Below, one piece after another: positions 43,433 to 61,459 of a DNA stretch of 64,000 nt. The DNA lies in IMG/VR virus record IMGVR_UViG_3300036719_006047, positions 1-64,000 of that record. The stretch is one strand, 5' to 3'. The notes below the pieces were generated by a model. It was given only the letters and a program-made list of their open reading frames with translations, was not told the DNA's origin and ran no database searches. The DNA comes from a virus. Both the position numbers and the translations under genes were made by a program. How positions within the stretch are numbered: position 1 is the stretch's first letter; every line of letters begins with the position of its first letter.

Positions 43433-43444
43433 GGCCTGAATCAA

Positions 43445-45899: not shown

Positions 45900-45906
45900 G
45901 TTTTGC

Positions 45907-46389: not shown

Positions 46390-46474
46390 GTGTGTCTCCG
46401 GCCGATCGGCTCGATGTCTCTTTAGCAGTAGCACGCTGAGCCGAGGCCGACGCTTTCTTTCCGTACCTGAAGTG

Positions 46475-46936
46475 CTACATCTCGATCAGGTTGAGCTTGA
46501 ACGTCTTTATTACGAGCTTTCCGTCAGAATCGGATTGCGCCACAAGTCTATTTTCGCTTTCTGTTCGCGTTTGTCTCAGGTCCAGCAGAATAAGTCCTTT
46601 CATCTCGTTGAGTGTTGGCATGTTTGTCTGCCACAAGGTCTCGTTAATGTCTGCTTCCGCAAAGTTTGTTCCTGTCAGCTTGCTCGCGGTAAACTGAGCT
46701 CCTACCAAAGTAGCTCCGCTAAAGTTTGAGTTCGTGAAGTCCACGAAATCGTAATTGCTGAAGCTCAAGTCCAAATCAGAGAGGTCCAAGTTGGTGAAAT
46801 CGCTATACTGTTCGCCTTCTTTTCTCTTTATTTCTGGCTGTTCTTCTCCTGCCCCTTGCCCGCTGTGATCCCACTCGGAACACTTATCCGCAAAATCGAT
46901 GAGAAACACAACGCGGGGGTCAGACATATCGGCCAC
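46475..46936 (-). CDS. DPRV-family pentapeptide-repeat protein, copy 1 (divergent, terminal)
   Basis: MADMSDPRV start, degenerate repeats, SDGKLVIKT tail. Confidence 0.85.
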   Translation of the reverse strand: MADMSDPRVVFLIDFADKCSEWDHSGQGAGEEQPEIKRKEGEQYSDFTNLDLSDLDLSFSNYDFVDFTNSNFSGATLVGAQFTASKLTGTNFAEADINETLWQTNMPTLNEMKGLILLDLRQTRTESENRLVAQSDSDGKLVIKTFKLNLIEM

Positions 46937-46944
46937 GGGTCACC

Positions 46945-47664
46945 TCAGTACCGCAAGGAGATACGCTTGATGCGTAGTTTACCGTCTTCTTCTGGCTGAA
47001 GCAAAAGATGTGGCTTCGCTTCGTCTTCAGCTGTAGGACTGGTCAGTAAAATTACATTGGCGCCCTTGAGGTTGGCGCGAGTGAGGTTGGCGCGAGTGAG
47101 GTTGGCACCAGCAAGATCGACGCGGGTCAGGTCGGCGGCGTAGAGGATGGCGCCGCTGAGGTCGGCGCGGCTGAGGTCGGCGCGGCTGAGGTTGGCGCTG
47201 TGGAGGCTGGCTTCGCTGAGGTTGGCGCCGATGAGCTTGGCGCCGATGAGCTTGGCGCCGTTGAGGTCGGCGTGTTCGAGGTCGGCGCCGTTGAGCTTCG
47301 CGCGGGCGAGGACGGCTTCTTCGAGGACGGCTTCTTCGAGGTTGGCGCCATCAAGGTTGGCGCCAGTGAGCTTGGCGCCGCGGAGGTCGGCGCCGCTAAG
47401 GTTGGCACCGCTGAGGTTAGCGCCTTTGAGCTTGGCGTCGATGAGGCCGGCGTCGGTGAGGTCGGCGCCGCCGAGCTTGGCGCCGGTGAGGTCGGCGCCG
47501 ATGAGGTTGGTAGTTTTGAGGTTTTCGCCGATGAGGTTGATATCAGACAGATCTTTGAGGTCAGACGGCAACAGCGGAATCTGCGATTTTTCTGCTTCAG
47601 CAACTCTGCATTCTTCTGCGTGAGACAGAACGCGAGGCACGCGAGGATCGGACATGTCTGCCAT
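46945..47664 (-). CDS. DPRV-family pentapeptide-repeat protein, copy 2
   Basis: [10 protein letters not shown](D/N/K)L(T/S)G pentads, [22 protein letters not shown] tail. Confidence 0.92.
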   Translation of the reverse strand: MADMSDPRVPRVLSHAEECRVAEAEKSQIPLLPSDLKDLSDINLIGENLKTTNLIGADLTGAKLGGADLTDAGLIDAKLKGANLSGANLSGADLRGAKLTGANLDGANLEEAVLEEAVLARAKLNGADLEHADLNGAKLIGAKLIGANLSEASLHSANLSRADLSRADLSGAILYAADLTRVDLAGANLTRANLTRANLKGANVILLTSPTAEDEAKPHLLLQPEEDGKLRIKRISLRY

Positions 47665-47672
47665 GGGTCACC

Positions 47673-48194
47673 TCAATAGCGTAGAGAAATACGTTTAATT
47701 TGTAATTTACCATCTTTTTCGGGTTGAAGCAGAAGATGTGGCTTCCGCTCGACGCTGGCAGGGCGGGTCAGTAGAATTACATTGCTGCTATTGAATTTAG
47801 TACCGCTAAACTTGGCGTTGGTGAGGTCGGCGCCGTTGAGCTTGGCGCCGGTGAGGTTGGTGCCGGTGAGCCTGGCGCCGGTGAGGTTGGCGCCGGTGAG
47901 GTTGGCGCCTTTGAGTTTGGCGTCGAAGAGGTCGGCTCCGGTGAGGTCGGCGTCGGTGAGGTCGGCGCCGGTGAGGTTGGCGCCCTGCAAGGAAGCGAGG
48001 GTGAGATCAGCGTTGGTGAGTTTGGCGCCAAGGAGGTTGGTGGTGTTGAGGTTGGCGTGGCTGAGGCTGATATTAGACAGATCTTTTAGTTCAGGCGGCA
48101 ATGACATAACAGGCCATTTTTGCACCACAGCTGAGCGACAAGCTTGTGCATGAGCGAGGACAAGTGGAACTCGGGGGTCAGACATGTCTGCCAT
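47673..48194 (-). CDS. DPRV-family pentapeptide-repeat protein, copy 3
   Basis: Same caps; [22 protein letters not shown]. Confidence 0.92.
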
Positions 48195-48202
48195 GGGTCA
48201 CC

Positions 48203-48907
48203 TCAGTATTGCAAAGGGATACGTTTAATTTGTAGTTTACCATCTTTTTCGGGCTGAAGCAGAAGATGAGGCCCCGGTCTAAAATTACCCGTGGGGTTGG
48301 TCAGCAGAATTGCATTGGCGCCCGTGAGGTCGGCGCGGCGGAGGTTGGTGCCGGTCAGGTTGGCGCCGGTGAGGTTGGCACCGGTGAGGTCGGCGCCGGT
48401 GAGGTCGGCGTTGCTGAGGTTGGCGCCGTTGAGGTCGGCGCCGTTGAGCTTCGCGTTGGCGAGGTAGGCGCTTTCGAGGTCAGCGTTGGTGAGGTTGGCG
48501 TCTTTGAGGTTGGCGCTGCTGAGCCAGGCGCCTTTGAGGTCGGCGCCGGTGAGGTTGGCGCTGTAGAGCTTGGCGCCGTTGAGGTCGGCGCCGGTGAGGA
48601 TGGCGCCTCTGAGGTCGGCGCCGTTAAGATAGGAGTGGTTGAGGGTGGTGCCGGTCAGGTCGGCGCCGCCGAGGTTGGCGCCGGTGAGGTTGGCGCCGCT
48701 GAGGTTGGCGTTGGTGAGGTTGGCATTGGTGAGGTTGGCGTTGGTGAGGTTAGCGTCGCTGAGGTTGGCGCCGGTGAGGTCGATGCTAGACAGATCTCGG
48801 AGATCGTTAGGTAAGTCCGGTCTATCCTTGCCTTGATCAACAGACTGTCTACAAGCTTCTGCATGAGCGAGGACAAGAGGAACGCGGGGGTCAGACATAT
48901 CGGCCAC
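48203..48907 (-). CDS. DPRV-family pentapeptide-repeat protein, copy 4
   Basis: Same caps; [22 protein letters not shown]. Confidence 0.92.
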
Positions 48908-48915
48908 GGGTCACC

Positions 48916-49599
48916 TCAGTACCTGAAGATGCGAGTCTTGATGCGAACTTTGCCGTCGGAGTGAAGCTCAACAACAAGATTCTTGCTCGCATTATCACTG
49001 GCTCCGACTCGCGCCGAACCAAGCATAATAAACTTTTGTGCTACGTCTTGCGGGAAGCCCGCCACGGCCACGTACAAGTATCTTCCTTCCGCTAACTGTG
49101 ACTGCGTGATCTTGGCTCCTTTCAACTCGGCGAAACCTATTTTCGCATTAGTGACATTTGCGCCAGTTAGGTCAGCGTCAGTGAAGTCTGTGTCATGTAG
49201 CACTGAGCCAGTGAGGTCAGCTTTACTCAAATTCGCTTCGCTCAAGTTAGCTTTGTCTAGTTTGGCGTAACGCAATACAGCAGAGCTGAGATTCGCGCCG
49301 ATGAGGTCTGCTCCGCTCAGATCGCAGTTCATCAGATTCGCTCTACTCAAGTTTGCTTTCTTTAGCTTTGCGCCGCGAAGCACAGCATTCCTCAAGTCGA
49401 CGCCGCTCAGATCAGACCCAGTGAAATCAACTCCCGCGAAGTTGGCAGAGCTGAGAACAGCTCCGCTTAGATCTATTCCAGGCAAAGAGGTCAACTCTTG
49501 GGGTAAATCGGGCTTCTCTTCCAGAAATTGAGCAGCTTCTTTGCAGACTTCCGCATAGGCAAGGACGGCTTCGACGCGAGGATCAGACATGTCCGCCAT
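48916..49599 (-). CDS. DPRV-family pentapeptide-repeat protein, copy 5
   Basis: Same N-cap; NLVVELHSDGKVRIKTRIFRY. Confidence 0.92.
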   Translation of the reverse strand: MADMSDPRVEAVLAYAEVCKEAAQFLEEKPDLPQELTSLPGIDLSGAVLSSANFAGVDFTGSDLSGVDLRNAVLRGAKLKKANLSRANLMNCDLSGADLIGANLSSAVLRYAKLDKANLSEANLSKADLTGSVLHDTDFTDADLTGANVTNAKIGFAELKGAKITQSQLAEGRYLYVAVAGFPQDVAQKFIMLGSARVGASDNASKNLVVELHSDGKVRIKTRIFRY

Positions 49600-49607
49600 A
49601 GCCTACC

Positions 49608-50060
49608 TCACTCATCGTCCATTCGGAGTTGAGTAGCCCTGATCCTAACCTTTCCTGTCTCAGCTACCTGCGCGATCAATCTCGGTCTTCTGAGCTCTTC
49701 TGATATTTTCATGTATTGTTCGCCCAGGAGTATAAGACCTTTCACTGTTTCTAGATTTTTTCTGGGCAAACCCATACCTTCGATGTTGGCTCCTGTGAAG
49801 TTTGCTCCCTTTATGTTGGCTTTATACATGTACGTTCTGCTCAAATCACAACCTGTAAAATTTGTTTCGCTCAAGTCAGCACCATGGAAATCTAAACTAC
49901 TCAAAGTGGCAAAGCTCATGTCCGCTTTAGACAAATCTAACTTTTTCATGTCTCCTCTTCTGTGTGGGAATTGAGGTCTTTCCTTTCCTTCCTTGAGCGC
50001 TATCCTGCAGCGCTCGGCGTGCTTTAGCAAGTAGACAACGCGGGGGTCAGACATGTCCAT
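49608..50060 (-). CDS. DPRV-family pentapeptide-repeat protein, copy 6 (short, divergent)
   Basis: MDMSDPRV; degenerate pentads; AETGKVRIRAT tail. Confidence 0.88.
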   Translation of the reverse strand: MDMSDPRVVYLLKHAERCRIALKEGKERPQFPHRRGDMKKLDLSKADMSFATLSSLDFHGADLSETNFTGCDLSRTYMYKANIKGANFTGANIEGMGLPRKNLETVKGLILLGEQYMKISEELRRPRLIAQVAETGKVRIRATQLRMDDE

Positions 50061-50068
50061 GAATCAGC

Positions 50069-50980
50069 TCAGTACTTGAAGATGGGAGTTTTGATGTGAA
50101 GTTTGCCGTCTGAGCGCAGTTCGACAACAAGTCTCTTTTTGGACTTTCGTTTCCAGGACGCAGGCGCTGGTTCGTGGGGCAAAATAACTTTTTCAGCTAC
50201 TTCTTTGGGGTAACCGTCTTGCGGTACATTGACATACTCTGCGCTATTCAATTGAATTTGAGTAATCTTCGCATCGGTCAAGTCGGCAAAACCTATTTGG
50301 GCGCGGTTGAGCTTGGCGCCGTAGAGGTGGGCGGCGCTGAGGTTGGCGCGAGTAAGGTTGGTCCCGGTGAGGTCGGCGCCGTAGAGCTTGGCGCGGGTGA
50401 GGTCGGCGCCCGTGAGGAAGGCGCCGGTGAGGTTGGCATCGGTGAGGTCAGCGTCTTCGAGGATGGCGCCGCCGAGCTTGGCGCCGGTGAGGTCGGCGCC
50501 GATGAGCTTGGCGCCGGTGAGGTTGGCGCCGGTGAGGTTGGCACCTTTGAGTTTGGCGCCATCAAGGTTGGCGCCAGTGAGCTTGGCGCCGCGGAGGTCG
50601 GCGCCGCTAAGGTTGGCGCCGGTGAAGTCGGCGCGGGTAATGTTGGCGTTGTAGAGGATAGCGGTGTAGAGGTTGGCTTTGGTGAGGTCGGCGCCTCCGA
50701 GGCTGGCGCCGTAGAGGTTGGCGCCGGTGAGGTTGGCACCGCTGAGGTTGGCGTTGGTGAGGTTGGCGCCGATGAGGTTGGCGCCGGTGAGGTTGGTGCC
50801 GCTGAGGTCGGCTTCGGCGAGGTTGGCGCCGGCGAGGTCGGCGCCGGTGAGGTCGATGCCAGAAAGATCTTTTAGCTCATGCGGCAGAGGAGGTATGCTC
50901 TTTTTCCACCACTTAGCTTCTCGACAAGCCTCTGCGTGAGCGAGGACAGCGATAACGCGGGGGTCGGACATGTTGGCCAT
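50069..50980 (-). CDS. DPRV-family pentapeptide-repeat protein, copy 7
   Basis: MANMSDPRV; [22 protein letters not shown]. Confidence 0.92.
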
Positions 50981-50983
50981 GAA

Positions 50984-53818
50984 TCACTTCGATCTCGATT
51001 TGCTGCTAGCTTCTTGTGTGTTGAGTTGATGCATCCTTCTTTCCGCCTCTGCTGCAGTAGCGAAAGTGAGGAGGTCAGGCATCACTCTGTAAACGATGGG
51101 CCCCGAGAAGATGTCACTCTTCTCTGCGATGACGCGACGCGGCCCTGACTTCCTACCTACCGCTAGCATCTTTTCGTAGCGTACACGCTTAGCCCAAAAC
51201 TCAGCAGGATCGGCGATTATCTTTTCTACAGCTCTTTCGCGGCTCTCGGGTGTCGGCATGTTTGTGCCAGGAATGAGGAAGGGATAGGAATGCCTCCTTC
51301 CGGCAATCTGAAAAGCTCTTTGCTTTGCTTCTTCAGGACTGTAGCCTTCTCTCAAACCTGACTCAAAGATGGCCAACCGCATCCGTCGAATTTGCTCTTC
51401 GTACGGATCGAGCACCTCGATGCCGTCTTCTTTGGGGTTGGTGTTTGCCGTCTGTTTGTCTTTGGGCGCCTTGGCGTTGATGTTGTCGTAGCGCAGCCTC
51501 ATGACCTGTTCTGGCATCAATTCAGCCATCAAGATATGCAGATAGTCTCTAACGTTGACGCCTGCTCCTTTACCTGAACCTTCTTCGAGCAAAGTCTTGA
51601 ACTCAATCGGCATCTCGTTGAGCACTTGAGCCGGCTTTCTGTTGTACGAAGGCGCCGAAGAATAATCGTCTTGCGGTCCTTCCCCCAAAACGAGGCGCGT
51701 GTGGTTGCGCTTCTTCTCGATTCGGCTCATCAACGCAAACGAGAAAGGATCGTTGGGGATGACGTAGATGATTTTGGGCTCTACGTTCTGCTCGGGCCGG
51801 TTGATGCGGTCTTCTGCTTGCGCTTCGATGCCGGGGTTCGGCATGCGCTGAATGAACAACAGCGTGTCTGCTGCGCTCAGGTTCAACCCTTCGCTGCCTG
51901 CTCGGGTCAAGATGACAATGGCTCTCTTGTCCTTCGCGTCAAGTTTTTCGGGGAACCTCAGACGTCGGCTCAACTCATCGAAGTCGCTGTATTCGTCTCC
52001 AAGCTTCTTTGCGGCTGACTGCGGCGTCTTGATCGGCTCGAGCACACTCGACTTCTTTTCTGCCATGCTTACGCGAGAAGCGTCTGCAACGTAAATCCTG
52101 ATGTTCGGGAATGCCTCTCTCAGCTTCTCAAAAAGCTTCTTCACGACGTCTTTGTGGTAAGCAAAGATAACCATCGGCCTGTCGAAATCTTTGTTCTCCG
52201 TGTTGTTTATTCTGTTTGACACAGCAGCGATCGTGCCATCGATCACGCTGGTGCCCATTCCTTTCATGAGAGTCGGAGGGATTGGGATGTAACCGCCGTA
52301 AAGCAGTTTCTTCAGCTTGTCCTTGAACACGGCGACGACAGCAGGGCTGAGTACTTCAGCCGCTGGTCTGCCTTTGTTTTTCGTCAGGTAAGCGTCGAAT
52401 TCCTGGAACACCTTTGAGGCTGCGTTGATCTTTTTTGCGTATTCTGCTTTGTCGGACGCCTTTCCACTCTTCCGCGAAGATCTTGCGATGACCTCTTTCG
52501 ACTTCTCGATAGCGGCCATAACTTCTTCGATTCTCTGGCTGTCAGGCGGCAGAATCAGGTAGGCTCTCTTCTTCTCTCTGAGCTGGAAACGAGCCAAAGC
52601 TCCAGTCTCTACAGCAAGTCGCCTGGGGTGACGAGTGCCCTTCGCGTACAACTCTTTTTGCAGCTTTTTCTGGGGCTCCTCGTTCTCCCAGTCCTTGAAC
52701 GTGATGTGACCTGTCCTTGAGAGCGTCATATCGTCGAAGTTCAGTCCTGTCTTGGCAGACAAGAAAATCGCTTCGAGCGACTTCGCCATCTGCTCGTCTG
52801 CGACAGGGTAGTCGTGGTAAGGAACCTCACCCACCGGCTCGAGCATGTTCAGAATGCTGGCAAGCTCTCCTGGGTCGTTGAGCATCGGTGTGCCCGTCAA
52901 CGCCAGCACGTGGGGGATGTAGTTCGCCAAATAGTAGCAGACTTTTGTGTTTTCCGAGCCGTAGTACTTCAACCTGTGGGCTTCGTCGAACACAATGGTC
53001 TTGATCTTGGCTGTGATCAGGTCACGAACTTCGACCGCTTCTTTTTGCTGTGCAGGAGTTGGTAACTTTAGTCTTTTGCTTTTTGCCACGACCTCCTCGA
53101 CAGGCTCGCTCTCGTCCTCCATATCGTCCAAGCTTGATGCAAGCTCAACTCTATCTTCCTTTGCGCCGAACGCTGTGTAGTACTCGGGCAGGGCTCTGCC
53201 GGCATAAGCTCCTGCGGGCCAAAGTAACGTTCTCAGCATCTCATAGGTAACCAGAATTACACTGTTTTCGTTAGCTTCTTCGACCGTTCTTCTGAGCCTG
53301 TTTGATGCCTCTACCTCGACTACAGTGTAGTTTGTTCTCAGCGCAAAAGTGTTTTTCCAAGAAGGCAGAGCGCTTCTCGGACAAACAACGAGGGCAGGCA
53401 AGTAACTCTCTGTGTCCGTCTCGAGCGTTTGGCCCGCATCGCCTGCGGCAATCGTCAAAACAGCTGTAGTTGTCTTTCCTAAGCCCATAGGATCGAACAA
53501 GCCCGCTCTGCCGCCTCGGTACAAAGCGAACAGCATCCCGGCCATCTGGTAGGGCAAGGCTGGTTGGCCTTTGCTGTAAAACTTCTTCGCCTTGATAGCA
53601 TTATCGAGAACGGCTTTAGCGGCCGCATCGATCTTCTCGTAATCCTCTCCCGAGAAGCCGTACTTCTCGTTGATGATACCCGGATAGCGCGAGATCTTGC
53701 TCCCTGTGTCGGGAGTGATCTCTGCTACAGGACTTAAATTCTGCTTTTTGCCTCTCTTTGCGGGAGGGTTTTTGCGGAAGATGACTTCTCGGTCCGGGAG
53801 AAGAGCGATGCGGTACAT
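50984..53818 (-). CDS. Second SNF2-family helicase-like protein, embedded in the pentapeptide array
   Basis: DPMGLGKT, VVCPRS, FDEAHRLK, LTGTPMLN, EGLNL..AD, QAEDRINR; RKNP near N-terminus, NTNP before C-terminal module. Confidence 0.85.
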   Translation of the reverse strand: MYRIALLPDREVIFRKNPPAKRGKKQNLSPVAEITPDTGSKISRYPGIINEKYGFSGEDYEKIDAAAKAVLDNAIKAKKFYSKGQPALPYQMAGMLFALYRGGRAGLFDPMGLGKTTTAVLTIAAGDAGQTLETDTESYLPALVVCPRSALPSWKNTFALRTNYTVVEVEASNRLRRTVEEANENSVILVTYEMLRTLLWPAGAYAGRALPEYYTAFGAKEDRVELASSLDDMEDESEPVEEVVAKSKRLKLPTPAQQKEAVEVRDLITAKIKTIVFDEAHRLKYYGSENTKVCYYLANYIPHVLALTGTPMLNDPGELASILNMLEPVGEVPYHDYPVADEQMAKSLEAIFLSAKTGLNFDDMTLSRTGHITFKDWENEEPQKKLQKELYAKGTRHPRRLAVETGALARFQLREKKRAYLILPPDSQRIEEVMAAIEKSKEVIARSSRKSGKASDKAEYAKKINAASKVFQEFDAYLTKNKGRPAAEVLSPAVVAVFKDKLKKLLYGGYIPIPPTLMKGMGTSVIDGTIAAVSNRINNTENKDFDRPMVIFAYHKDVVKKLFEKLREAFPNIRIYVADASRVSMAEKKSSVLEPIKTPQSAAKKLGDEYSDFDELSRRLRFPEKLDAKDKRAIVILTRAGSEGLNLSAADTLLFIQRMPNPGIEAQAEDRINRPEQNVEPKIIYVIPNDPFSFALMSRIEKKRNHTRLVLGEGPQDDYSSAPSYNRKPAQVLNEMPIEFKTLLEEGSGKGAGVNVRDYLHILMAELMPEQVMRLRYDNINAKAPKDKQTANTNPKEDGIEVLDPYEEQIRRMRLAIFESGLREGYSPEEAKQRAFQIAGRRHSYPFLIPGTNMPTPESRERAVEKIIADPAEFWAKRVRYEKMLAVGRKSGPRRVIAEKSDIFSGPIVYRVMPDLLTFATAAEAERRMHQLNTQEASSKSRSK

Positions 53819-53820
53819 GA

Positions 53821-54165: not shown

Positions 54166-54293
54166 GGTGCCTCCAGTTCTGCCCACTGAGTCTCGCCTAA
54201 GTAGCGAGAACGCAGGGCATCCACGAGACACAATAGCCTTTGCCCGGTCTTTGGTCGCTTTACCGACCCGTCTTCGAGTGCTGCAGCTCTGCG

Positions 54294-54489
54294 TCAATAC
54301 TTTGAGACTCGATTCACGTTGTACAGAGCGTCTTCTCGCTTTAGGCTAATACTTCTTCTATTTTCTGCCTTTCGAGCTAAATCTCTTTGGCCGAAGGGGC
54401 TATAAGGTTGAGTTTGTTCTATCTGAATCGCTTCCTTGCACTATTTTTAGTGAGCTACAAGCTCGCCTGCGAGGGTCAGACATGCTCAT
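54294..54489 (-). pseudogene. Decayed 17th DPRV-family copy
   Basis: After the copy-8 stop and an 8-nt spacer: ATG AGC ATG TCT GAC CCT CGC (MSMSDPR), frameshift, LVAH*K*CKEA (cf. [11 protein letters not shown]), no pentads, ends AAG TAT TGA (KY*). Confidence 0.75.
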
Positions 54490-54497
54490 GCATCAGC

Positions 54498-55121
54498 TCA
54501 GTACTTGAAAATGGGAGTTTTGATGTGAAGCTTGCCGTCAGAACGAAGCTCGGCGACAAGTCTCTTTTTGGCGACACGGCTCCCGCGATCGGCTTCTGGC
54601 TCGTGAAGAAAAATAACTTTTTCGGCTACTCCTTCGGGGTAGTCCAAATTCGCAACATCGCGATACCCTGCGCTATTCAATTGACTTTGAGTGATCTTCG
54701 CGTTGTTCAAATCAGCGAAACCGATGGAGGTCCTGAACAAGCTGGCGTCGGTGAGATTAGCGCCGGTGAGGTTGGCGCCCTTGAGGTTGGCTTCCCCGAG
54801 GCGGGCGCCGGTGAGGTCGGCGCGGGTGAGGTTGGAGCCGCTGAGGTTGGCGCCGGTGAGCTTGGCACCGGTGAGGTTGGCGTCGGTGAGGTTGGCTCCG
54901 GTGAGGTTGGCGCCGTAGAGGTTGGCGCGGAAGAGATTGGCGCCGGTGAGGTCGGCGTCGTTGAGCTCGGCTTCGGCGAGGTCGGCGCCGGATAGGTCGA
55001 TGCCAGAAAGATCTTTGAGATTATGCGGCAAAGAAGGTCTGCTATCTCCCCGAGCATAAGCTTCTTTGCAAGCCCTTGCGTGAGCGAGGACAGCGATAAC
55101 GCGGGGGTCGGACATGTTCAT
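54498..55121 (-). CDS. DPRV-family pentapeptide-repeat protein, copy 8
   Basis: MNMSDPRV ... [22 protein letters not shown]. Confidence 0.92.
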
Positions 55122-55129
55122 GATTCACC

Positions 55130-55675
55130 TCAGTACTTGAAGATGGGAGTTTTGATGTGAAGTTTGCCGTCAGAACGAAGTTCAACGACAAGTCTTTTTT
55201 TGGCTTCAGTAAGCCCGCTGCTGGGTTCGTGAAGCAAAATGAATTTTTTAGCTGCTGCCACTGGGTAACCATTGTATGCTACATTTATATTGGACGAAGA
55301 TTCAATTTGGTCTTGCGTAATCTTCGCGTCGGTCAAGTCAGCAAAACCGATGTAGGCTTTGGTCAAGTTGGCGTCGGTGAGGTTGGCTCCTGTAAGATCG
55401 GAGTCGTTGAGGCTGGCGCGAGTGAGGTTGGCGCCGGTCAGGTTAGCGTTAATGAGGTTGGTTTTGCCGAAGATGGCACCGGTGAGGTTGGCGCCCGTGA
55501 GATCGACGCCCTCGAGATCGGTGTCACCGAGGCTGGCGTTCGTGAGGTCGATGCCAGAAAGATCTTTGAGCTCATGAGGCAGAGGAGGTCTGCTCTTTTT
55601 AAACCACTTAGCTTCTTTGCAAGCCCTTGCGTGAGCGAGGATAGCGACAACGCGGGGGTCGGACATGTTGGCCAC
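55130..55675 (-). CDS. DPRV-family pentapeptide-repeat protein, copy 9
   Basis: Same caps. Confidence 0.92.
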   Translation of the reverse strand: MANMSDPRVVAILAHARACKEAKWFKKSRPPLPHELKDLSGIDLTNASLGDTDLEGVDLTGANLTGAIFGKTNLINANLTGANLTRASLNDSDLTGANLTDANLTKAYIGFADLTDAKITQDQIESSSNINVAYNGYPVAAAKKFILLHEPSSGLTEAKKRLVVELRSDGKLHIKTPIFKY

Positions 55676-55683
55676 GGTTCACC

Positions 55684-56544
55684 TCAGTACTTGAAGATGG
55701 GAGTTTTGATGTGAAGTTTGCCGTCAGAACGAAGTTCAACGACAAGTCTTTTTTTTACTTGGCGCTGCAAGCTATGACTTTTCTGTTGCAGCAAAATAAC
55801 TTTTTTTGCTATTTCTTTCGGGTAACCATCTTCTGCGACATCTGTGTGTTCAATAAAGTTCAGTTGGGCCTGAGTGACCTTAGCGTTAGTCAAATCTGCG
55901 AATCCCAAATCAGCGTAGTTGAGGTCGGCTCCCGTCAGATCAGCACCTGTGAGGTTAGCGCGGCTGAGCTTGGCGATGCTGAGGTCGGCACCAGTAAGGT
56001 CAGCCCCTTCTAAGTTAGCGCTTTTGATGTCGGCTCCGGTGAGGGCGGCGCCGTTGAGGTTGGCACGATTTAAGTTGGCACGGTTCAACTCGGAGTAGCT
56101 TAGCGTGGCTGAGCGGAGGGAAGCGCCGCTGAGATCAGCTCTGCTAAAATTGGCGTTGAGGCATTTGGCTGACTCAAGTTCTGCGTTGTTTAATTTGGCG
56201 TCGACAAGTTTGACTTCTTGAAGATTGGCGTCGGTGAGGTCGGCACCAGTGAGGTCTGCGCCCGTGAGATCCGCGGAATACAGTTGGGCGCCCGACAGCT
56301 TGGCACCCCTAAGGTCGGCGCCAGTTAGGTTGACTGCAGAGAGATTTGCACGCTCAAGCTTGGCGCCACTTAAGTTGGCTCCGGCAAAGTTGACGCCGAT
56401 GAGGCTGAGGCTGCTGAGGTCTATTCCAGATAATTCTTTAAGGTTTTCGGGGAATGGCGGTATGGTTTTTCCTGCGTTTTCGGCTTGGTAATGAGCCTTT
56501 ACGTAATCGAGCACGCGAGGGACACGGGGATCAGACATGTCCAT
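55684..56544 (-). CDS. DPRV-family pentapeptide-repeat protein, copy 10
   Basis: Same caps. Confidence 0.92.
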   Translation of the reverse strand: MDMSDPRVPRVLDYVKAHYQAENAGKTIPPFPENLKELSGIDLSSLSLIGVNFAGANLSGAKLERANLSAVNLTGADLRGAKLSGAQLYSADLTGADLTGADLTDANLQEVKLVDAKLNNAELESAKCLNANFSRADLSGASLRSATLSYSELNRANLNRANLNGAALTGADIKSANLEGADLTGADLSIAKLSRANLTGADLTGADLNYADLGFADLTNAKVTQAQLNFIEHTDVAEDGYPKEIAKKVILLQQKSHSLQRQVKKRLVVELRSDGKLHIKTPIFKY

Positions 56545-56552
56545 GAATCACC

Positions 56553-57299
56553 TCAATACTTGAAGATGGGAGTCTTGATGTAAAGTTTGCCGTCTGCACG
56601 CAGTTCAACGACAAGTCTCTTTTTAACTTGTTGCCTCGATCTTCTGAGTTCTGGATTGTGGAATAAAATAACTTTTTCGGCTACTTCTTTTGGGTAACCG
56701 TCTTGTGCTACATCAGTGTAAAGTGCGCTGTCTAGCTGGGCCTTAGTGATGTTCGCGTTGGTTAAGTCAGCAAAACCGATGTTGGCGGCGATGAGGTTGG
56801 CGGCGTTGAGGTTGGCGGCGGTGAGGTTGGCGTCGACAAGCTTGGCGTCGGTGAGGGTGGCGTGGGTGAGGTCGGCGCTGCTGAGGTCGGCGCGGCTGAG
56901 GATGGCGCTGCCGAGGTAGGCGCGGAGGAGCTTGGCGTCAGTGAGGTTTGCGTGGCTGAGGTCGGCGTTGGTGAGCTTGGTGTCAGTGAGGTCGGCGCGG
57001 CTGAGGTCGGCACCGTTTAACTTTGAGAAGTAGAGCTCGGCGGCGCTTAGGTCGGCACCTTCGAAGTTGGCGCGGGTGAGGTTGGCGCGGATGAAGTAGG
57101 CGCTACTGAGATTGGCACCGGTAAAGTCGGCACCTTCGAGGTTGGCGTCACTGAGGTTGGCACTGCTGAGGTCGATGCCAGACAAATCTAGGAGATTAGA
57201 AGCTAAGACTGGTCCGTCTTCTCTTCTATTTTTAGCTTCTTTGCAAGCCCTTGCGTGAGCGAGGACAAGAGGAACGCGGGGGTCAGACATATCGGCCAC
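56553..57299 (-). CDS. DPRV-family pentapeptide-repeat protein, copy 11
   Basis: Same caps. Confidence 0.92.
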   Translation of the reverse strand: MADMSDPRVPLVLAHARACKEAKNRREDGPVLASNLLDLSGIDLSSANLSDANLEGADFTGANLSSAYFIRANLTRANFEGADLSAAELYFSKLNGADLSRADLTDTKLTNADLSHANLTDAKLLRAYLGSAILSRADLSSADLTHATLTDAKLVDANLTAANLNAANLIAANIGFADLTNANITKAQLDSALYTDVAQDGYPKEVAEKVILFHNPELRRSRQQVKKRLVVELRADGKLYIKTPIFKY

Positions 57300-57307
57300 A
57301 GATCACC

Positions 57308-58069
57308 TCAGTACTTGAAGACGGGAGTCTTGATGTGCAGTCTGCCGTCTGCTCGAAGCTCAACAACAAGTCTTTTTTTGGCTGTTCGTTTCCAGGACGC
57401 AGGCGCTGGTTCGTGGGGCAAAATAACTTTTTCAGCTACTTCTTTGGGGTAACCGTCTTGCGGTACATTGACATACCCTGCGCTATTCAATTGAATTTGA
57501 GTAATCTTCGCGTTGGTCAAGTCAGCGAAACCTAATTTGGCACTTTTGAGGTCGGCGCCTTCGAGGTTGGCGCCGGTGAGGTCGGCGTCGGTGAGGTCGG
57601 CGCCGCCGAGGTCGGCGTCGGTGAGGTCGGCGCCGGTGAGGTTGGCGCCGCTGAGCTCGGCGCGGAAGAGTCTGACGCGGGTGAGGTTGGCTCCGCTTAG
57701 GTCAGCGCCCTCGAGCTTGGCGCCGTCGAGATCGGCGCCGCTGAGGTCGGCGTTGGTGAGGTTGGCGCTGCTGAGGTCGGCGCCTTCGAGAACGGCGTCG
57801 GTGAGGTTAGCGTCGGTGAGGTTGGCGCCGATGAGCCAGGCGCTGATGAGCTTGGCGCTGATGAGCTTGGCGTCGGTGAGGTTAGCGTCGGTGAGGTTAG
57901 CGTCGGTGAGGTCGGCTTCTTCGAGATTGGCGCCGGAGAGGTTGATGCCAGAAAGATCTTTGAGTTTATGAGGCAGAGGAGGTCTGCTCTTTCCCCCCGA
58001 CTTAGCTTCTCGACAAGCCTCTGCGTGAGCGAGGATAGCGATAACGCGGGGGTCGGACATATCGGCCAC
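57308..58069 (-). CDS. DPRV-family pentapeptide-repeat protein, copy 12
   Basis: Same caps. Confidence 0.92.
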   Translation of the reverse strand: MADMSDPRVIAILAHAEACREAKSGGKSRPPLPHKLKDLSGINLSGANLEEADLTDANLTDANLTDAKLISAKLISAWLIGANLTDANLTDAVLEGADLSSANLTNADLSGADLDGAKLEGADLSGANLTRVRLFRAELSGANLTGADLTDADLGGADLTDADLTGANLEGADLKSAKLGFADLTNAKITQIQLNSAGYVNVPQDGYPKEVAEKVILPHEPAPASWKRTAKKRLVVELRADGRLHIKTPVFKY

Positions 58070-58077
58070 AGATCACC

Positions 58078-59046
58078 TCAGTACTTGAAGATGGGAGTCT
58101 TGATGTGCAGTCTGCCGTCTGCTCGCAGTTCAATGACAAGTCTCTTTTTGGCCTTTCGCTTGTGTGGTATAGGTTCTGGTTCGTGAAGCAAAATAACTTT
58201 TTCGGCTACTTTTTTAGGGTAACCGTCTTTTGCTACATCGACATAATTTGAGGCATTCAATTGATCTTGAGTAATCTTCGCGTTGGTCAAGTCAGCGAAA
58301 CCTATTTCGGCTCTTTTGAGGTCGGCGCCTTCGAGGTTGGCGCCGGTGAGGTTGGCGTTGGTGAGGTTGGCGCCGGTGAGGTTGGCGTCGCTGAGTTTGG
58401 TGCTGTGGAGGTTGGCACCGGTGAGGTTGGCGCCCCAGAGGTTGGCGCCGTTGAGGTCGGCGCCGGTGAGGATGGCGCCTCTGAGGTCGGCGCCGGTGAG
58501 GTTGGCACTGGTGAGGTCAGCGTTGGTGAGGTTGGCGCCGGTGAGGTTGGCGCCGACGAGGTTGGCGCCGGTGAAATTGGAGCCGATGAGCCAGGCGTCG
58601 CGGAGCTCGGCGCGGTTGAGGTTGGCGTAGTTGAGCTTGGCGCCGTTGAGCCTGGCGCCGGTGAGGTCGGCGCCCCCGAGGCGGGCATTCTCGAGGGCGG
58701 CGTCGGTGAGGTCGGCGCCGGTGAGGTTGGCGCCGCTGAGGTTGGCGCCTCTGAGGACGGCGCCGGTGAGGACGGCGCCGGTGAGGTTGGCGCCGTTGAG
58801 GTCGGCGCCGGTGAGGTTGGCGCGGGTGAGGTTGGCGCCGTTGAGGTCGGCGCCGGTGAGGATGGCGCCTCTGAGGTCGGCGCCCTCGAGCTTGTCGCCG
58901 TCGAAATCGGCGCCGGTGAAGTCTATGCCAGACAGATTTCTAAGATTAGAGGGTAAGACTGGAACGATTTCTCCCTGCTGCTTAGCTTTTTGGCAAGCCT
59001 TTGCGTGAGCGAGGACAGCGATAACGCGGGGGTCGGACATGTTCAT
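58078..59046 (-). CDS. DPRV-family pentapeptide-repeat protein, copy 13 (longest, 322 aa)
   Basis: Same caps. Confidence 0.92.
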
Positions 59047-59054
59047 GATTCACC

Positions 59055-59855
59055 TCAATACTTGAAGATGGGAGTCTTGATGTAAAGTTTGCCGTCTGCT
59101 CGCAGTTCAACGACAAGTCTCTTTTTGGCTATTCGTTCCCAGGACGTAGGCGGTTCGTGAAGCAAAATAACTTTCTCGGCTACTTCTTTGAGGTAGCCCA
59201 AATCCGCAACATTGACATAATTTGAGTCATCCAATTGATCTTGAGTAATCTTCGCGTTGGTCAAGTCAGCGAAACCTATTTCGGCGCCGTTGAGGTCGGC
59301 GCCGGTGAGGTCGGCGTCGGTGAGGTCGGCGCCGGTGAGGTTGGCGCCGCTGAGCTCGGCGCGGAAGAGTCTGACGCGGGTGAGGTTGGCGCCGTTGAGG
59401 TCGGCGCCGGTGAGGTTGGCGCCGTTGAGGTCGGCGCCGGTGAGGATGGCGCCTCTGAGGTCGGCGCCGGTGAGGTTGGCACTGGTGAGGTCAGCGTTGG
59501 TGAGGTTGGCGTCTTTGAGGTTGGCGCTGTTGAGCTTGGCGCTGTTGAGGTTGGCGCGGGTGAGGTTGGCGCTGTAGAGCTTGGCGCCTCTGAGGTCGGC
59601 GCTGAAGAGCCAGGCGCCGCTGAGGTTGGCGCCGTTGAGGTCGGCGCCGGTGAGGTCGATGCCGGTGAGCTTGGCGTCGGTGAGGTCGGCGCGGGTGAGG
59701 TTGGCGCCGGTGAGGTCGGCGCCGGTGAGGTCGATGCGATAAATATCTTTGAGAATATGCGGCAGAGAAGGTCTGCTTCTTTTCTGCCGATTAGCTTCTC
59801 GACAAGCCTCTGCGTGAGCGAGGACAAGAGGAACGCGGGGGTCGGACGTGCCCAT
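59055..59855 (-). CDS. DPRV-family pentapeptide-repeat protein, copy 14
   Basis: MGTSDPRV; same C-cap. Confidence 0.92.
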
Positions 59856-59863
59856 GAATCACC

Positions 59864-60406
59864 TCAGTACTTGAAGATGCGATTTTTGATGTGAAGCTTG
59901 CCGTCCGCTCGCAGCTCAACAACAAGTCTTTTTTTGGCAACACGGTTCCAATCGACAGTTTCGTGAAACAAAATAACTTTTTCGGCCACTTCCTTAGGGT
60001 AACCCTGATATTCTACATCACGGTAAAATGCTTCTTCCAGCTGGGCCTGAGTGACCCTCGCGTTGGTTAAGTCAGCAAAACCTATTTTGGCGCGGTTGAG
60101 GTTGGCGCCGTTGAGCTTGGCGCCGTTGAGGTCGGCGTCTTCGAGGTAGGCGCCTCTGAGGTTGGCGCCCGTGAGGTCGGCGCCGATGAGGTCGGAGCCG
60201 CGGAGGTTAGCGTCGGTGAGGTCGGCGTTGGTGAGGTTGGCGCCGGCGAGGTCAGCGTCTTCGAGATTGGCGCCGGAGAGGTCGATGCCAGAAAGATCTT
60301 TGAGCTCATGAGGCAGAGGAGGTCTGCTCTCTTCCCCCCAAAAAGCTTCTCGACAAGCCTCTGCATGCGCGAGGATAGCGACAACGCGGGGGTCGGACGT
60401 GTCCAT
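59864..60406 (-). CDS. DPRV-family pentapeptide-repeat protein, copy 15
   Basis: MDTSDPRV; KLHIKNRIFKY. Confidence 0.92.
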   Translation of the reverse strand: MDTSDPRVVAILAHAEACREAFWGEESRPPLPHELKDLSGIDLSGANLEDADLAGANLTNADLTDANLRGSDLIGADLTGANLRGAYLEDADLNGAKLNGANLNRAKIGFADLTNARVTQAQLEEAFYRDVEYQGYPKEVAEKVILFHETVDWNRVAKKRLVVELRADGKLHIKNRIFKY

Positions 60407-60414
60407 GAATCACC

Positions 60415-61137
60415 TCAGTACTTGAAGATGGGAGTTTTGATGTGAAGCTTTCCGTCTGCGCGCAATTCGACGACAAGTCTCTTTTTGGCAACACGGTTCT
60501 TGGACACAGGTTCTTTCGCGTGAAGCAAAATAACTTTTTCGGCTACTTCTTTGGGGTAACCGTTTTGTGCAACATCGACATACCATCCTCTATCCAATTG
60601 AGCTTTAGTAATCTTCGCGTTGGTCAAGTCGGCAAAACCTAAGTTAGCTTCACCTCCTGAGTAGAGTTCACCTAAGTAGACGCCGGTGAAGTCGGCGTCG
60701 GTGAGATTGGCGCCGGTGAGGTCGGCGTAGCTGAGGTTGGCGCGGTTGAGGTTGGCGCCAGTGAGGTTGGCGCCGTGGAATCTGGCGGCGCTGCCGAGCT
60801 TGACGTCGGTGAGGTCGGCTCCGGTGAGGTCGGCGCTGTCGAAGTAGGCGCTGCTGAGGTCGGCGCCGGTCAAGTTGGCGTCGGTGAGGTTGGCGCCTCT
60901 GAGGTCGGAATTGCCGAAGTAGGCGCCTCTGAGGTCGGCGCTGCTGAGGTCGGCGCCGGTGAGGTTGGCGTCGGTGAGCAAGGCTTCGATGAGCCGGGCG
61001 CCGGAGAGGTCGATGCCAGACAGATATCTAAGATTATAGGGCAAGCGTGAAGAGAGTCTTCCCTGCTGCGTAGCTTGTAGACAAGCCTCTGCGTGAGCGA
61101 GGACAGCGATAACGCGGGGGTCGGACATGTTGGCCAC
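60415..61137 (-). CDS. DPRV-family pentapeptide-repeat protein, copy 16
   Basis: MANMSDPRV; same C-cap. Confidence 0.92.
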   Translation of the reverse strand: MANMSDPRVIAVLAHAEACLQATQQGRLSSRLPYNLRYLSGIDLSGARLIEALLTDANLTGADLSSADLRGAYFGNSDLRGANLTDANLTGADLSSAYFDSADLTGADLTDVKLGSAARFHGANLTGANLNRANLSYADLTGANLTDADFTGVYLGELYSGGEANLGFADLTNAKITKAQLDRGWYVDVAQNGYPKEVAEKVILLHAKEPVSKNRVAKKRLVVELRADGKLHIKTPIFKY

Positions 61138-61140
61138 GGT

Positions 61141-61422: not shown

Positions 61423-61459
61423 CTGTCACTCTCGCTCTTAGGGGGCGCGGCACAGGAAG

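What the first reader, a model, noticed from the sequence alone, without database searches (positions are those of the whole stretch)
46475..61137. Candidate new system: cassette array of 16 paralogous pentapeptide-repeat genes with fixed caps and variable cores
Seen: 16 intact genes (150-322 aa, ~11 kb coding) all start M(A)(D/N)(M/T)SDPRV, most continuing ..LAHA..C..A, then have a hypervariable ~8-aa loop ([32 protein letters not shown]). A variable number of A(D/N/K)L(T/S)G pentads follows, with sporadic exposed substitutions (W, Y, F, R, E), and they end in a conserved xDGKLxIK...Y-type tail. Established: pentapeptide repeats form beta-helices that can mimic DNA (MfpA, Qnr). Inference: a diversified library of DNA mimics of graded length and surface, aimed at host defence nucleases or topoisomerases, or variable interaction proteins docked via common caps. 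It resembles a viral gene accordion or antigenic-variation locus.
Basis: partly seen in the sequence, partly recalled or inferred. Interest (0 to 1): 0.92.

Follow-up and report, generated by a model that had tools for sequence, protein, structure and literature searches.

The report
Sixteen-gene phage pentapeptide-repeat array
An uncultured 137-kb lake phage spends 8% of its genome on 16 back-to-back genes for rod-shaped pentapeptide-repeat proteins with the same two end modules but unrelated surfaces and lengths; the family is real, selected and lineage-specific, its function is untested, and DNA mimicry is not supported.

Summary
Observation confirmed. Sixteen intact pentapeptide-repeat (PRP) genes of 150-322 aa (11,034 nt, 8.1% of a 136,910-bp IMG/VR phage record) lie on the minus strand in two blocks. 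The blocks are separated by a Gly-zipper gene and an SNF2 ATPase gene. Fourteen junctions have exactly 8 nt between stop and start, nearly all reading TGA-GGTGAnnn-start. I also found a truncated 17th unit, a coupled 93-aa leader ORF and a divergent member 9 kb away.

The N-cap is a confident helix and the cores are 9-43 uninterrupted pentads. The C-terminal ~55 aa is an orphan module whose tail is under strong purifying selection (omega 0.09 at dS 0.55). Outward core residues are barely more alike between paralogs than random pentads (0.30 vs 0.23).

Relatives occur only in a few metagenome clusters. They show the same junction, the same PRP-GlyZip-SNF2 synteny, about 4-fold faster protein change than the neighbouring genes, and a natural cap-swap chimera. 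Lake metagenomes of 2020-2024 reproduce unique parts without a mismatch.

Not supported: DNA mimicry (pI 4.3-9.5), Qnr/MfpA membership, a recent gene accordion. The best reading is a recombination-shuffled repertoire of binder proteins sharing one docking module, probably for host takeover or counter-defence (inferred). This scan has noted smaller PRP families (2-9 copies) in other phages.

The parts
61141..61422 (-). 93-aa leader ORF, translationally coupled to the first PRP gene (its TGA lies inside the GAGGTGA Shine-Dalgarno)
60415..61137 (-). PRP01, 240 aa, group A caps; the only core with breaks in the pentad register
59864..60406 (-). PRP02, 180 aa, 17 pentads
59055..59855 (-). PRP03, 266 aa, 33 pentads; shares exact 100-nt and 84-nt patches with PRP04 and PRP05 at shifted positions
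58078..59046 (-). PRP04, 322 aa, 43 pentads (longest)
57308..58069 (-). PRP05, 253 aa, 30 pentads, most acidic core (-16)
56553..57299 (-). PRP06, 248 aa, 29 pentads
55684..56544 (-). PRP07, 286 aa, 35 pentads
55130..55675 (-). PRP08, 181 aa, 16 pentads; the protein that was folded
54498..55121 (-). PRP09, 207 aa, 21 pentads; last intact gene of the upstream block
54400..54489 (-). Truncated 17th unit: 29-codon remnant starting with the family N-motif, 8 nt after the PRP09 stop, with a degraded SD (GCTGA); a comparable stub sits at the same place in relative L002
53821..54297 (-). Glycine-zipper small membrane protein (conserved part starts at the internal Met, about 115 aa); syntenic in relative L002
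50984..53818 (-). SNF2-family ATPase, 944 aa, inside the array; its stop is 3 nt from the PRP10 start; syntenic in relative L002
50069..50980 (-). PRP10, 303 aa, 40 pentads
49608..50060 (-). PRP11, 150 aa, 10 pentads, divergent group C tail
48916..49599 (-). PRP12, 227 aa, 26 pentads, divergent group A tail
48203..48907 (-). PRP13, 234 aa, 29 pentads, short group B tail
47673..48194 (-). PRP14, 173 aa, 18 pentads, group B tail
46945..47664 (-). PRP15, 239 aa, 30 pentads, group B tail
46475..46936 (-). PRP16, 153 aa, 9 pentads, group C tail, most acidic (pI 4.3); last gene of the array
37060..37545 (-). Divergent outlying member (161 aa) with a similar layout by eye: N-terminal segment with a conserved Cys, short solenoid, DG-type strand tail. 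It was not detected by the C-cap HMM.

Best explanation
The locus is one long operon of a large uncultured freshwater phage. It encodes a lineage-specific multigene family of modular pentapeptide-repeat proteins. Each protein has three parts. The first is a constant N-terminal helix plus loop, which most likely caps the open end of the solenoid. The second is a right-handed four-sided beta-helix of 2 to 11 coils whose inward Ala/Leu ladder is fixed and whose outward surface is different in every copy. The third is a constant ~55-residue C-terminal module (short helices plus a three-stranded beta-meander) found nowhere else. SHOWN: the genes are intact; they are chained by stop-SD-start junctions; the C-tail is under strong purifying selection; the surfaces are unrelated between copies; copies exchange patches and caps by recombination; and relatives carry differently composed arrays in the same synteny. 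INFERRED, evolution: the conserved junction block (C-tail, 8-nt spacer, N-motif) serves as homology for unequal crossing-over that adds, deletes and swaps whole genes, which would explain the truncated unit and the cap-swap chimera. Recombination between the 15-nt units would change coil number and shuffle the surface. INFERRED, function: the family is a repertoire of protein-binding rods. All copies dock through the shared C-module to one common partner or to each other, and each offers a different recognition surface and length. They are co-expressed with the replication and SNF2 genes and probably bind or block variable host factors such as defence or DNA-handling proteins. The biochemical target is unknown.
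For: Real genes and operon: 16 intact ORFs with PF00805; 14 junctions of exactly 8 nt, nearly all with GGTGA; no sigma-70-like promoter and only two weak 5-bp terminator-like stems on the coding strand inside the array. Structure: AF2 gives helix 7-24 and the solenoid at pLDDT about 87-97; with 31 sequences the C-module appears as helices plus strands at pLDDT 55-68. Selection: C-tail omega 0.086 at dS 0.55; the IGFADL segment 0.17; the N loop 1.07. Surface diversity: outward identity 0.30 in register against a 0.229 random baseline, inward 0.79-0.81. Recombination: exact patches of 84-100 nt at shifted positions; the N-cap and C-cap nearest neighbours disagree for several copies; P0034 equals P0006 over residues 1-132, and its last 48 residues are 48/48 identical to PRP01 against 35/48 for P0006; there is a truncated unit. 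Relatives: the same junction and tandem genes in L001-L004, and PRP-GlyZip-SNF2 synteny in L002. Against L002, PRP dN is 0.31 while the neighbours show 0.08. Orphan caps: 4 clusters match the full C-cap strongly plus one weakly, among 1.84 billion representatives; there is no Pfam hit even at E<=10; none in 50,697 phage records; none found in genome contigs; the N-cap never occurs without this C-cap. Presence: at least 24 lake metagenome runs, with 0-mismatch pieces in runs of 2020, 2023 and 2024.
Against: No expression data and no binding data exist, and the host is unknown. The C-module is modelled only at low to moderate confidence, so 'docking module' rests on its conservation and not on a structure. 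Conservation of the last codons may partly reflect the ribosome-binding region of the next gene. A neutral loop (omega about 1) and non-alignable cores give no proof of diversifying selection. The apparent omega of 1.9 in the core against L002 is an artefact candidate, because repeats share consensus codons. The sequence of the listed unique pieces did not change over four years, so there is no sign of a fast arms race at that time scale. The complete gene order is not confirmed by long reads.
Confidence: 0.45

Rival explanations
1. One reading: a graded library of DNA mimics (MfpA/Qnr-like or Ocr/ArdA-like) that titrates host nucleases, restriction enzymes or topoisomerases by imitating B-DNA.
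For: The solenoid fold is shared with MfpA, Qnr and AlbG (MfpA 2bm4 Z 7.7 over 55 residues). Most cores are mildly acidic. The genes sit in a replication-type operon, where early anti-restriction genes often lie.
Against: pI ranges from 4.3 to 9.5, 6 of 16 have net charge >= 0, cores carry only 0 to -2.2 charges per coil, and C-caps are basic at 0 to +7. Curated Qnr and MfpA models score far below their cut-offs. There are no Qnr-type loops. Lengths of 2-11 coils and aromatic or basic surface residues do not fit one DNA-like shape.
Confidence: 0.13
2. The PRPs are adaptors or regulators of the SNF2 ATPase encoded in the middle of the array. The shared C-module docks on SNF2, and the variable rod directs or gates its remodelling activity.
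For: SNF2 lies inside the array, its stop is 3 nt from the PRP10 start, and the PRP-GlyZip-SNF2 order is conserved in relative L002.
Against: Neighbourhood alone is weak evidence. The phage has a second helicase of the same PHROG (phrog_62) elsewhere. No interaction was tested. Sixteen adaptors for one enzyme has no precedent that I know of.
Confidence: 0.1
3. Qnr/MfpA/AlbG-type protection or modulation of host or phage type II topoisomerase.
For: This is the only well-established biochemical role of small bacterial PRPs (review PMC10886550). The genes lie in a replication-module context.
Against: Membership tests failed. Loops essential for Qnr action are absent. One function would not need 16 different surfaces. 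The C-terminus is predicted as a beta-meander module rather than a terminal helix of the kind through which these PRPs dimerise (review text).
Confidence: 0.07
4. The expansion has little specific function: a recombination-prone repeat family that inflates and drifts (a neutral birth-and-death family), or a structural or virion role.
For: The repeats and the conserved junction favour unequal crossing-over. There is a decayed unit. The N loop and linker have omega about 0.8-1.1. A PHROG tail-fibre family matches the core weakly.
Against: All 16 frames are intact despite dS of 0.3-1.0 between copies. C-tail omega is 0.09 and 0.24 against the relative. The inward ladder is preserved. The family is kept in relatives. 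Position in a replication operon argues against a virion part.
Confidence: 0.12
5. Assembly artefact: a few PRP genes were inflated into 16 by misassembly of repeats.
For: Short-read k-mer contigs break inside the array and give many spurious joints. Relatives are seen only as 1-2 kb fragments.
Against: The longest exact stretch shared by two copies is 100 nt. Every copy has unique sequence. Four independent runs reproduce unique parts and many junctions with 0 mismatches, at depth similar to the flanks.
Confidence: 0.03

Closest known systems
Cyanobacterial Rfr-type pentapeptide-repeat proteins (Np275/Np276 PDB 2J8I/2J8K, Rfr32 2G0Y, Rfr23 2O6W, HetL 3DU1, Alr1298, Alr5209)
   Same: Canonical A(D/N)LxG pentads, an uninterrupted right-handed quadrilateral beta-helix, and small size. 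They are the best Foldseek matches (29-40% identity over the solenoid).
   Different: Those are single cellular genes, mostly of unknown function. None has this N-helix/loop cap or the ~55-aa C-module, and none forms a coupled array in a phage. NCBIfam HetL is below cut-off. The Alr5209 model exceeds its cut-off for PRP10 only by summing three repeated partial matches.
Topoisomerase-directed PRPs: MfpA, QnrB1 and other Qnr, AlbG, EfsQnr, McbG
   Same: The same solenoid fold. They are small stand-alone proteins whose function depends on the surface and on termini that mediate dimerisation (review PMC10886550).
   Different: 14-23% identity in Foldseek. Curated family models are far below cut-off. 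No loops A/B. Charge is not uniformly acidic. The C-terminal module is different. There are sixteen copies instead of one.
Single PRP genes of sequenced phages (e.g. Microcystis phage MaMV-DL02 11L, Caulobacter phage RapA gp021, Salmonella phage Oslo, Rheinheimera Barba phages, many mycobacteriophages)
   Same: Phage-borne stand-alone PRPs of unknown function. 490 of 50,697 phage records have a PRP match. The MaMV-DL02 gene also sits by recA and nrdA.
   Different: Matches cover only the solenoid. The C-cap has no match in any sequenced phage at E<=1. The one neighbourhood inspected (MaMV-DL02) holds a single PRP gene. No published phage with a 16-gene coupled array was found.
Smaller phage PRP multigene families noted earlier in this scan (2, 3, 6 and 9 copies; some with DUF5758 or other end domains). 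These are AI notes, not publications.
   Same: Tandem or coupled PRP paralogs with constant end segments and variable repeat number in phage operons; DNA mimicry was likewise not supported there.
   Different: Those lie in different genomes and have different cap families. Here the C-cap is not DUF5758. The copy number is the largest so far, and relatives, synteny, selection and environmental recurrence could be measured.
Expanded repeat-protein families of large viruses (ankyrin, MORN, BTB or F-box families of giant viruses and poxviruses); from general knowledge, not tested here
   Same: A viral genome devotes a sizeable share to many diverged copies of one protein-interaction scaffold, generally read as host-interaction repertoires.
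   Different: A different fold, eukaryotic hosts, and no translationally coupled operon architecture.

Membership tests
Pentapeptide-repeat family (Pfam PF00805, clan Pentapeptide) | Tandem A(D/N)LXX pentads scoring above the Pfam gathering threshold | tested here: met
   Eight tested members score 48-305 bits against a cut-off of 20.2. Six-frame matches were found in all 16 genes. 409 pentads with Ala at i-2 (354/409) and Leu at i (354/409).
Pentapeptide-repeat family (Pfam PF00805, clan Pentapeptide) | Right-handed quadrilateral beta-helix fold | tested here: met
   The AF2 solenoid has pLDDT about 87-97. Foldseek probability is 1.00 to many solved PRPs. VIA gives Z 7.7 to MfpA and 7.1 to a designed PRP. 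This is a prediction, not a solved structure.
Qnr / MfpA topoisomerase-protecting PRPs | Score above the curated NCBIfam cut-off for Qnr (NF033086) or MfpA (NF000349) | tested here: not met
   Best Qnr score 70 bits against a cut-off of 240; best MfpA score 74 against 360; six paralogs tested.
Qnr / MfpA topoisomerase-protecting PRPs | Qnr-type surface loops interrupting the solenoid (loops A and B of QnrB1; the definition is from the literature) | tested here: not met
   Pentad register is unbroken in 15 of 16 cores. Only PRP01 has two short breaks.
Qnr / MfpA topoisomerase-protecting PRPs | Tail-to-tail dimer through the C-terminus giving a DNA-sized rod | tested here: inconclusive
   The C-terminus is predicted as a beta-meander module at pLDDT 55-68. 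No usable oligomer evidence was obtained.
DNA-mimic proteins (MfpA-like, Ocr, ArdA) | Strongly and uniformly negative surface imitating the phosphate backbone | tested here: not met
   Net charge -14 to +5 and pI 4.3-9.5. Cores carry 0 to -2.2 charges per coil and C-caps 0 to +7. Only sequence charge was computed, not 3-D electrostatics.
Phage PRP + DUF5758 end-domain proteins | C-terminal DUF5758 domain | tested here: not met
   The isolated C-caps of groups A, B and C and of the outlier have no DUF5758 hit, nor any other credible Pfam hit, at E<=10.
Recent 'gene accordion' amplification (poxvirus type) | Near-identical tandem copies whose number varies within a population | tested here: not met
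   Cap nucleotide identity is 57-91% and dS 0.3-1.0. The longest exact shared stretch is 100 nt. Unique parts are identical in runs of 2020, 2023 and 2024.
Diversity-generating retroelement target | A reverse transcriptase with template repeat in the same genome | tested here: not met
   No PF00078 match in the 136,910-bp record, which is 85% complete.
Known anti-phage defence proteins (PADLOC) | Match to a defence-system model | tested here: not met
   No PADLOC hit for PRP08 or PRP10. SNF2 matches only the generic helicase parts of the ZorD, DpdE and DrmD models.

The most novel reading that the evidence does not exclude
The array is a phage-encoded repertoire of solenoid binders. A single invariant C-terminal docking module plugs every copy into one shared machine, or lets copies pair with each other combinatorially. 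Recombination among 15-nt units and whole-gene cassettes continually generates new surfaces and lengths, and each copy neutralises a different host defence or DNA-handling protein. It would be a viral counterpart of repeat-based receptor repertoires, built on the pentapeptide fold.
Probability: 0.2. Interest if true: 0.85.

Novelty: new variant of a known kind. Interest (0 to 1): 0.62.

Why it matters
Pentapeptide-repeat proteins are among the most common repeat proteins of bacteria and phages, yet outside the Qnr/MfpA group almost none has a known function. PRP matches occur in about 490 sequenced phage records, and I found no functional study of them. This locus is the most extreme phage case seen so far: 16 intact copies, 8% of the genome. 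It comes with a built-in contrast, because the ends are constant and strongly selected while the surfaces are different in every copy. That tells an experimenter where to look: the C-module for the common partner and the solenoid faces for specific targets. If the copies prove to bind different host factors, the family would be a new class of phage host-interaction or counter-defence proteins, and a natural library of stable beta-helical binders of graded length. If not, it is still a clean example of birth-and-death evolution of a coupled gene array in a phage that recurs in lake metagenomes dated 2020 to 2024.

Tried and rejected
- Homodimer prediction of PRP08 (complex prediction): no verdict (score 0.01). 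It is not evidence either way.
- RNA evidence: no RNA holder was listed among the sequencing runs, so there is no information on expression.
As a result the 122-kb contig that carries both P0006-type and P0018-type relatives could not be fetched, and the array of that relative could not be compared.
- IMG/VR scans with the C-cap profile, P0006 and P0043 found nothing.
- C-cap identification failed by every route: PDB sequence profile (only the residual pentads match), ESM Atlas by features (<0.9) and by structure (TM <0.5), Pfam at E<=10, PHROGs (core only), tblastn against phages, and the VIA wide search (aligned range 1-67 only). A missing match does not show that the fold is new.
- Host inference failed. 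The DNA polymerase and helicase have only about 25-28% identical phage relatives from very different hosts. SNF2 weakly matches two actinobacterial phages, which is too weak to name a host.
- Positive selection in the core: the omega of 1.9 against L002 was rejected as unreliable. Pentads share consensus codons, so dS is deflated, and the alignment is not orthologous.
- Integron-like cassette reading: no recombination-site or integrase evidence was sought beyond the ORF and Pfam scans of neighbours. Nothing suggested it.
- DGR: no reverse transcriptase.

Full report
WHAT IS THERE. The window is the first 64 kb of a 136,910-bp IMG/VR virus record rated 85% complete. On the minus strand between 46475 and 61137 there are 16 intact ORFs of 150-322 aa. 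Eight of them were scanned against Pfam and all hit PF00805, from E 7e-13 down to 4e-93. A six-frame scan of the whole genome finds 72 PF00805 matches, 69 of them in these 16 genes and the rest in two genes near 36-37.5 kb. Together the 16 genes make up 11,034 nt, or 8.1% of the record.

- The array has two blocks, PRP01-09 (61137 down to 54498) and PRP10-16 (50980 down to 46475). They are separated by a glycine-zipper membrane protein gene (53821-54297) and a 944-aa SNF2-family ATPase gene (50984-53818).
- All 14 PRP-PRP junctions have exactly 8 nt between stop and start. Nearly all read TGA-GGTGAnnn-ATG/GTG, so the stop codon is part of a GAGGTGA Shine-Dalgarno sequence for the next gene.
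- The SNF2 stop lies 3 nt before the PRP10 start.
- A 93-aa ORF (61141-61422) is coupled in the same way to PRP01.
- Inside the array the coding strand shows no sigma-70-like promoter and only two weak 5-bp terminator-like stems. The simplest reading is one long, translationally coupled operon within the replication module: DNA polymerase, helicases and an exonuclease on one side, a DUF3987 primase-like gene on the other.
- Eight nt after the PRP09 stop sits a 29-codon stub (54400-54489) that begins with the family N-motif behind a degraded SD. It is a truncated 17th unit.
- The ORF at 37060-37545 is a PRP that looks by eye like a divergent outlier of the family, although the C-cap HMM does not detect it. 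No other member lies elsewhere in the genome.

PROTEIN ARCHITECTURE.
- N-cap and solenoid: AlphaFold2 on PRP08 with a 10-sequence alignment gives a helix at residues 7-24 followed by the solenoid, with block-mean pLDDT of 87-97 up to about residue 100 and falling after that.
- Cores: they contain 9 to 43 pentads (about 2-11 coils), unbroken in 15 of 16 proteins. The inward positions are almost fixed (Ala 354/409, Leu 354/409) and the three outward positions are variable (entropy 2.6-3.1 bits).
- C-terminus: the last ~55 residues are not solenoid. With a 31-sequence alignment they are predicted, at pLDDT 55-68, as short helices followed by three strands.
- Tail subtypes: three share that strand pattern, namely group A (PRP01-10, 12), group B (PRP13-15) and group C (PRP11, 16).
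- Nearest folds: the Foldseek search puts the solenoid closest to cyanobacterial Rfr-type PRPs and designed solenoids derived from them; Qnr, MfpA and AlbG follow at 14-23% identity.

SELECTION. Pooled Nei-Gojobori estimates over the ten group A copies are shown below.

Region | omega | dS
C-terminal tail, 22 codons | 0.086 | 0.55
IGFADL segment | 0.17 | 0.96
GYPKEV..VILL segment | 0.25 | 0.56
Linker | 0.79 | 0.90
N-motif plus helix | 0.70 | 0.31
N loop | 1.07 | 0.72

- The tail is therefore conserved by selection on the protein, not merely by recent copying.
- The loop evolves at about the neutral rate, which neither proves nor excludes diversifying selection.
- In the cores, outward residues of in-register pentads are 30% identical between paralogs, against 22.9% for random pentad pairs. 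Inward residues are about 80% identical in both comparisons. The surfaces have lost essentially all positional homology.

HOW THE ARRAY CHANGES.
- Age: the copies are old. Cap nucleotide identity is 57-91%, and the longest exact stretch shared by two copies is 100 nt.
- Mosaicism: exact patches of 84-100 nt lie at shifted positions in PRP03/04/05, and a 92-nt patch is shared by the non-adjacent PRP05 and PRP10.
- Cap disagreement: N-cap and C-cap similarities disagree. For example, PRP08 and PRP10 are 88% identical in the N-cap and 72% in the C-cap.
- Natural chimera: protein P0034 equals P0006 over residues 1-132, and its last 48 residues are 48/48 identical to this phage's PRP01 against 35/48 for P0006.
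- Substrates: nucleotide conservation peaks from about -70 to +15 around each stop codon, and every core is a 15-nt-period array at 60-84% matches.
- Mechanism: these facts fit unequal homologous recombination, at the junction block for whole-gene gain, loss and swapping, and among 15-nt units for coil number and surface shuffling. That mechanism is inferred. A reverse transcriptase is absent, so a DGR is excluded.

RELATIVES AND RATES.
- Rarity: against 1.84 billion representative proteins the C-cap profile finds four strong clusters plus one weak full-length match. The word-indexed search of 5.8 billion proteins finds seven non-self proteins, all with both caps. The N-cap never occurs without this C-cap.
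- Absence elsewhere: no relative was found in the genome collection of about 185,000 bacterial and archaeal species, in IMG/VR apart from this record, or in 50,697 sequenced phage genomes.
- Arrays in relatives: five short metagenome contigs hold close relatives. Four of them carry two or three tandem PRP genes, with the same junction sequence wherever the junction is readable.
- Synteny: contig L002 reads PRP - PRP - stub - Gly-zipper - SNF2, the same order as here.
- Rates: between the two phages the Gly-zipper and the SNF2 N-terminus are 87% and 86% identical (dN about 0.08, omega 0.06-0.09, dS about 1). The positionally equivalent PRP is 59% identical (dN 0.31), with its C-cap still constrained at omega 0.24. 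PRPs thus change about four times faster at the protein level than their neighbours, or are replaced by non-orthologous copies.
- Order: gene order also differs. In L004 a PRP12-like gene is followed by a group A gene and then by a gene with a PRP11-like N-cap; in L003 a group B gene precedes a group A gene.
- Second lineage: a second ~122-kb phage carries at least two family members, judged from shared contig lengths.

IS IT AN ARTEFACT? At least 24 lake-water metagenome runs dated 2020, 2023 and 2024 hold 68-89% of the array's 31-mers. Contigs from four of them were laid on 45500-62000.
- They break inside the repeats, as expected for k=31.
- Pieces with 0 mismatches cover flank-to-PRP16, PRP16/15, PRP13/12/11/10, PRP10-SNF2-GlyZip-PRP09, PRP07/06, PRP03/02 and PRP01-to-flank.
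- Depth is similar to the flanks.
- Only a handful of SNPs and two in-frame 3-nt indels, at partial depth or in a single contig, were listed.
The copies are therefore real, and the listed unique pieces are identical across those years. The full order of 16 still needs long reads.

- DNA mimicry is not supported. Net charge runs from -14 to +5 and pI from 4.3 to 9.5. Six of 16 proteins are neutral or basic. Cores carry 0 to -2.2 charges per coil, and the C-caps carry 0 to +7.
- Membership in the Qnr/MfpA group fails. Curated NCBIfam models score 70-74 bits against cut-offs of 240-360, and Qnr-type loops are absent.
- The one score above a curated cut-off (the Alr5209 model, PRP10, 139.5 against 125 bits) comes from three summed partial matches to a 113-residue generic PRP model and is not membership.
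- There is no PADLOC match for the two PRPs tested.
- 'Gene accordion' in the poxvirus sense is not met, because the copies are old and stable.

MOST LIKELY FUNCTION (INFERRED). The proteins look like modular binders with three parts: a capping helix, a rod whose length and surface differ in every copy, and an invariant C-module that is the most constrained part of the protein. That module was not folded confidently in the monomer with a shallow alignment. This is compatible with a segment that folds on a partner, but equally with poor alignment depth. Co-transcription with replication genes and an SNF2 ATPase, about 4-fold faster protein change than the neighbours, and turnover between relatives are the hallmarks of phage host-interaction genes. 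I therefore put about 45% on a repertoire of host-factor or defence-protein binders sharing one docking or oligomerisation module. The rivals are DNA mimics (13%), neutral or structural family (12%), SNF2 adaptors (10%), gyrase modulators (7%) and artefact (3%). The remainder is for something not considered.

LITERATURE AND EARLIER NOTES. Full-text searches found no paper on phage PRP arrays or on a function for phage PRPs. A gyrase-inhibitor review covers the Qnr/MfpA mechanism (PMC10886550). Pentapeptide repeats are listed among the sensor repeats of bacterial NLR-like defence proteins (bioRxiv 10.1101/2022.07.19.500537), which shows the fold can serve as a protein-recognition surface. This scan's own earlier notes report smaller PRP families (2, 3, 6 and 9 copies) with other conserved end domains in other phages. 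I tested the one concrete lead, DUF5758, and it does not apply here. The general theme therefore recurs, and this is its largest and best-documented instance, with cap modules of its own.

VERDICT. The finding is a new variant of a known kind: PRPs are known, but this capped, coupled 16-gene phage family is not described. Interest 0.62: striking in scale and clean in architecture, and it offers a tractable way to study what phage PRPs do. It is limited by the unknown host, the absence of expression or binding data, and the existence of smaller analogues.

Noticed in passing
window 11776-16581 (-): The 1601-aa DNA polymerase gives short, strong PHROG matches to unrelated enzymes (ribonucleotide reductase, PhoH, thymidylate synthase) at residues ~359-513. 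That pattern suggests an intein or homing-endonuclease insertion in the polymerase gene.
   Followed up: no
window 36197-37057 (+): An atypical Cys/Phe-rich pentapeptide-repeat protein (286 aa) without the family caps lies tail-to-tail with the outlying family member at 37060-37545.
   Followed up: partly
window 37547-38419 (-): A NUDIX hydrolase has a C-terminal extension containing four tandem copies of an 8-residue Pro-rich unit (NUDIX).
   Followed up: no
window 41843-45076 (+): A MoxR-like AAA_5 ATPase is followed by a DUF2201 metallopeptidase/VWA-like protein with a long acidic Gly/Ser/Asp-rich insert. This is a conserved pair of unknown role just next to the array.
   Followed up: no
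window 47147-47679, 48266-48814, 50174-50875, 58261-58956, 59235-59894 (+): Long antisense ORFs (100-233 aa, GAGEV-type repeats) run opposite the PRP genes. They are a by-product of the stop-free reverse complement of the 15-nt unit, not genes.
   Followed up: partly
window 47324 and 58765: Population variants in lake metagenomes: an in-frame CGC insertion in PRP15 (part of the depth in runs X2 and X8) and an in-frame 3-nt deletion in PRP04 (one contig of run X8).
   Followed up: no
L005:3-689 (-): In one relative, the start of the PRP array is flanked on the opposite strand by a gene with an NPPF-type motif typical of N6-adenine DNA methyltransferases (my reading of the motif, not tested). 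That differs from the DUF3987 primase-like gene that flanks the array here.
   Followed up: no
window 63442-63799 (both strands): A low-complexity stretch gives ORFs on both strands made of TRA/TRT or RVV/RVA triplet-like repeats. It looks like a short-period tandem repeat in DNA of unknown role.
   Followed up: no
window 24665-26506 (-) and 50984-53818 (-): The phage carries two helicases of the same PHROG (phrog_62, SNF2-like), and only one of them is embedded in the PRP array.
   Followed up: no
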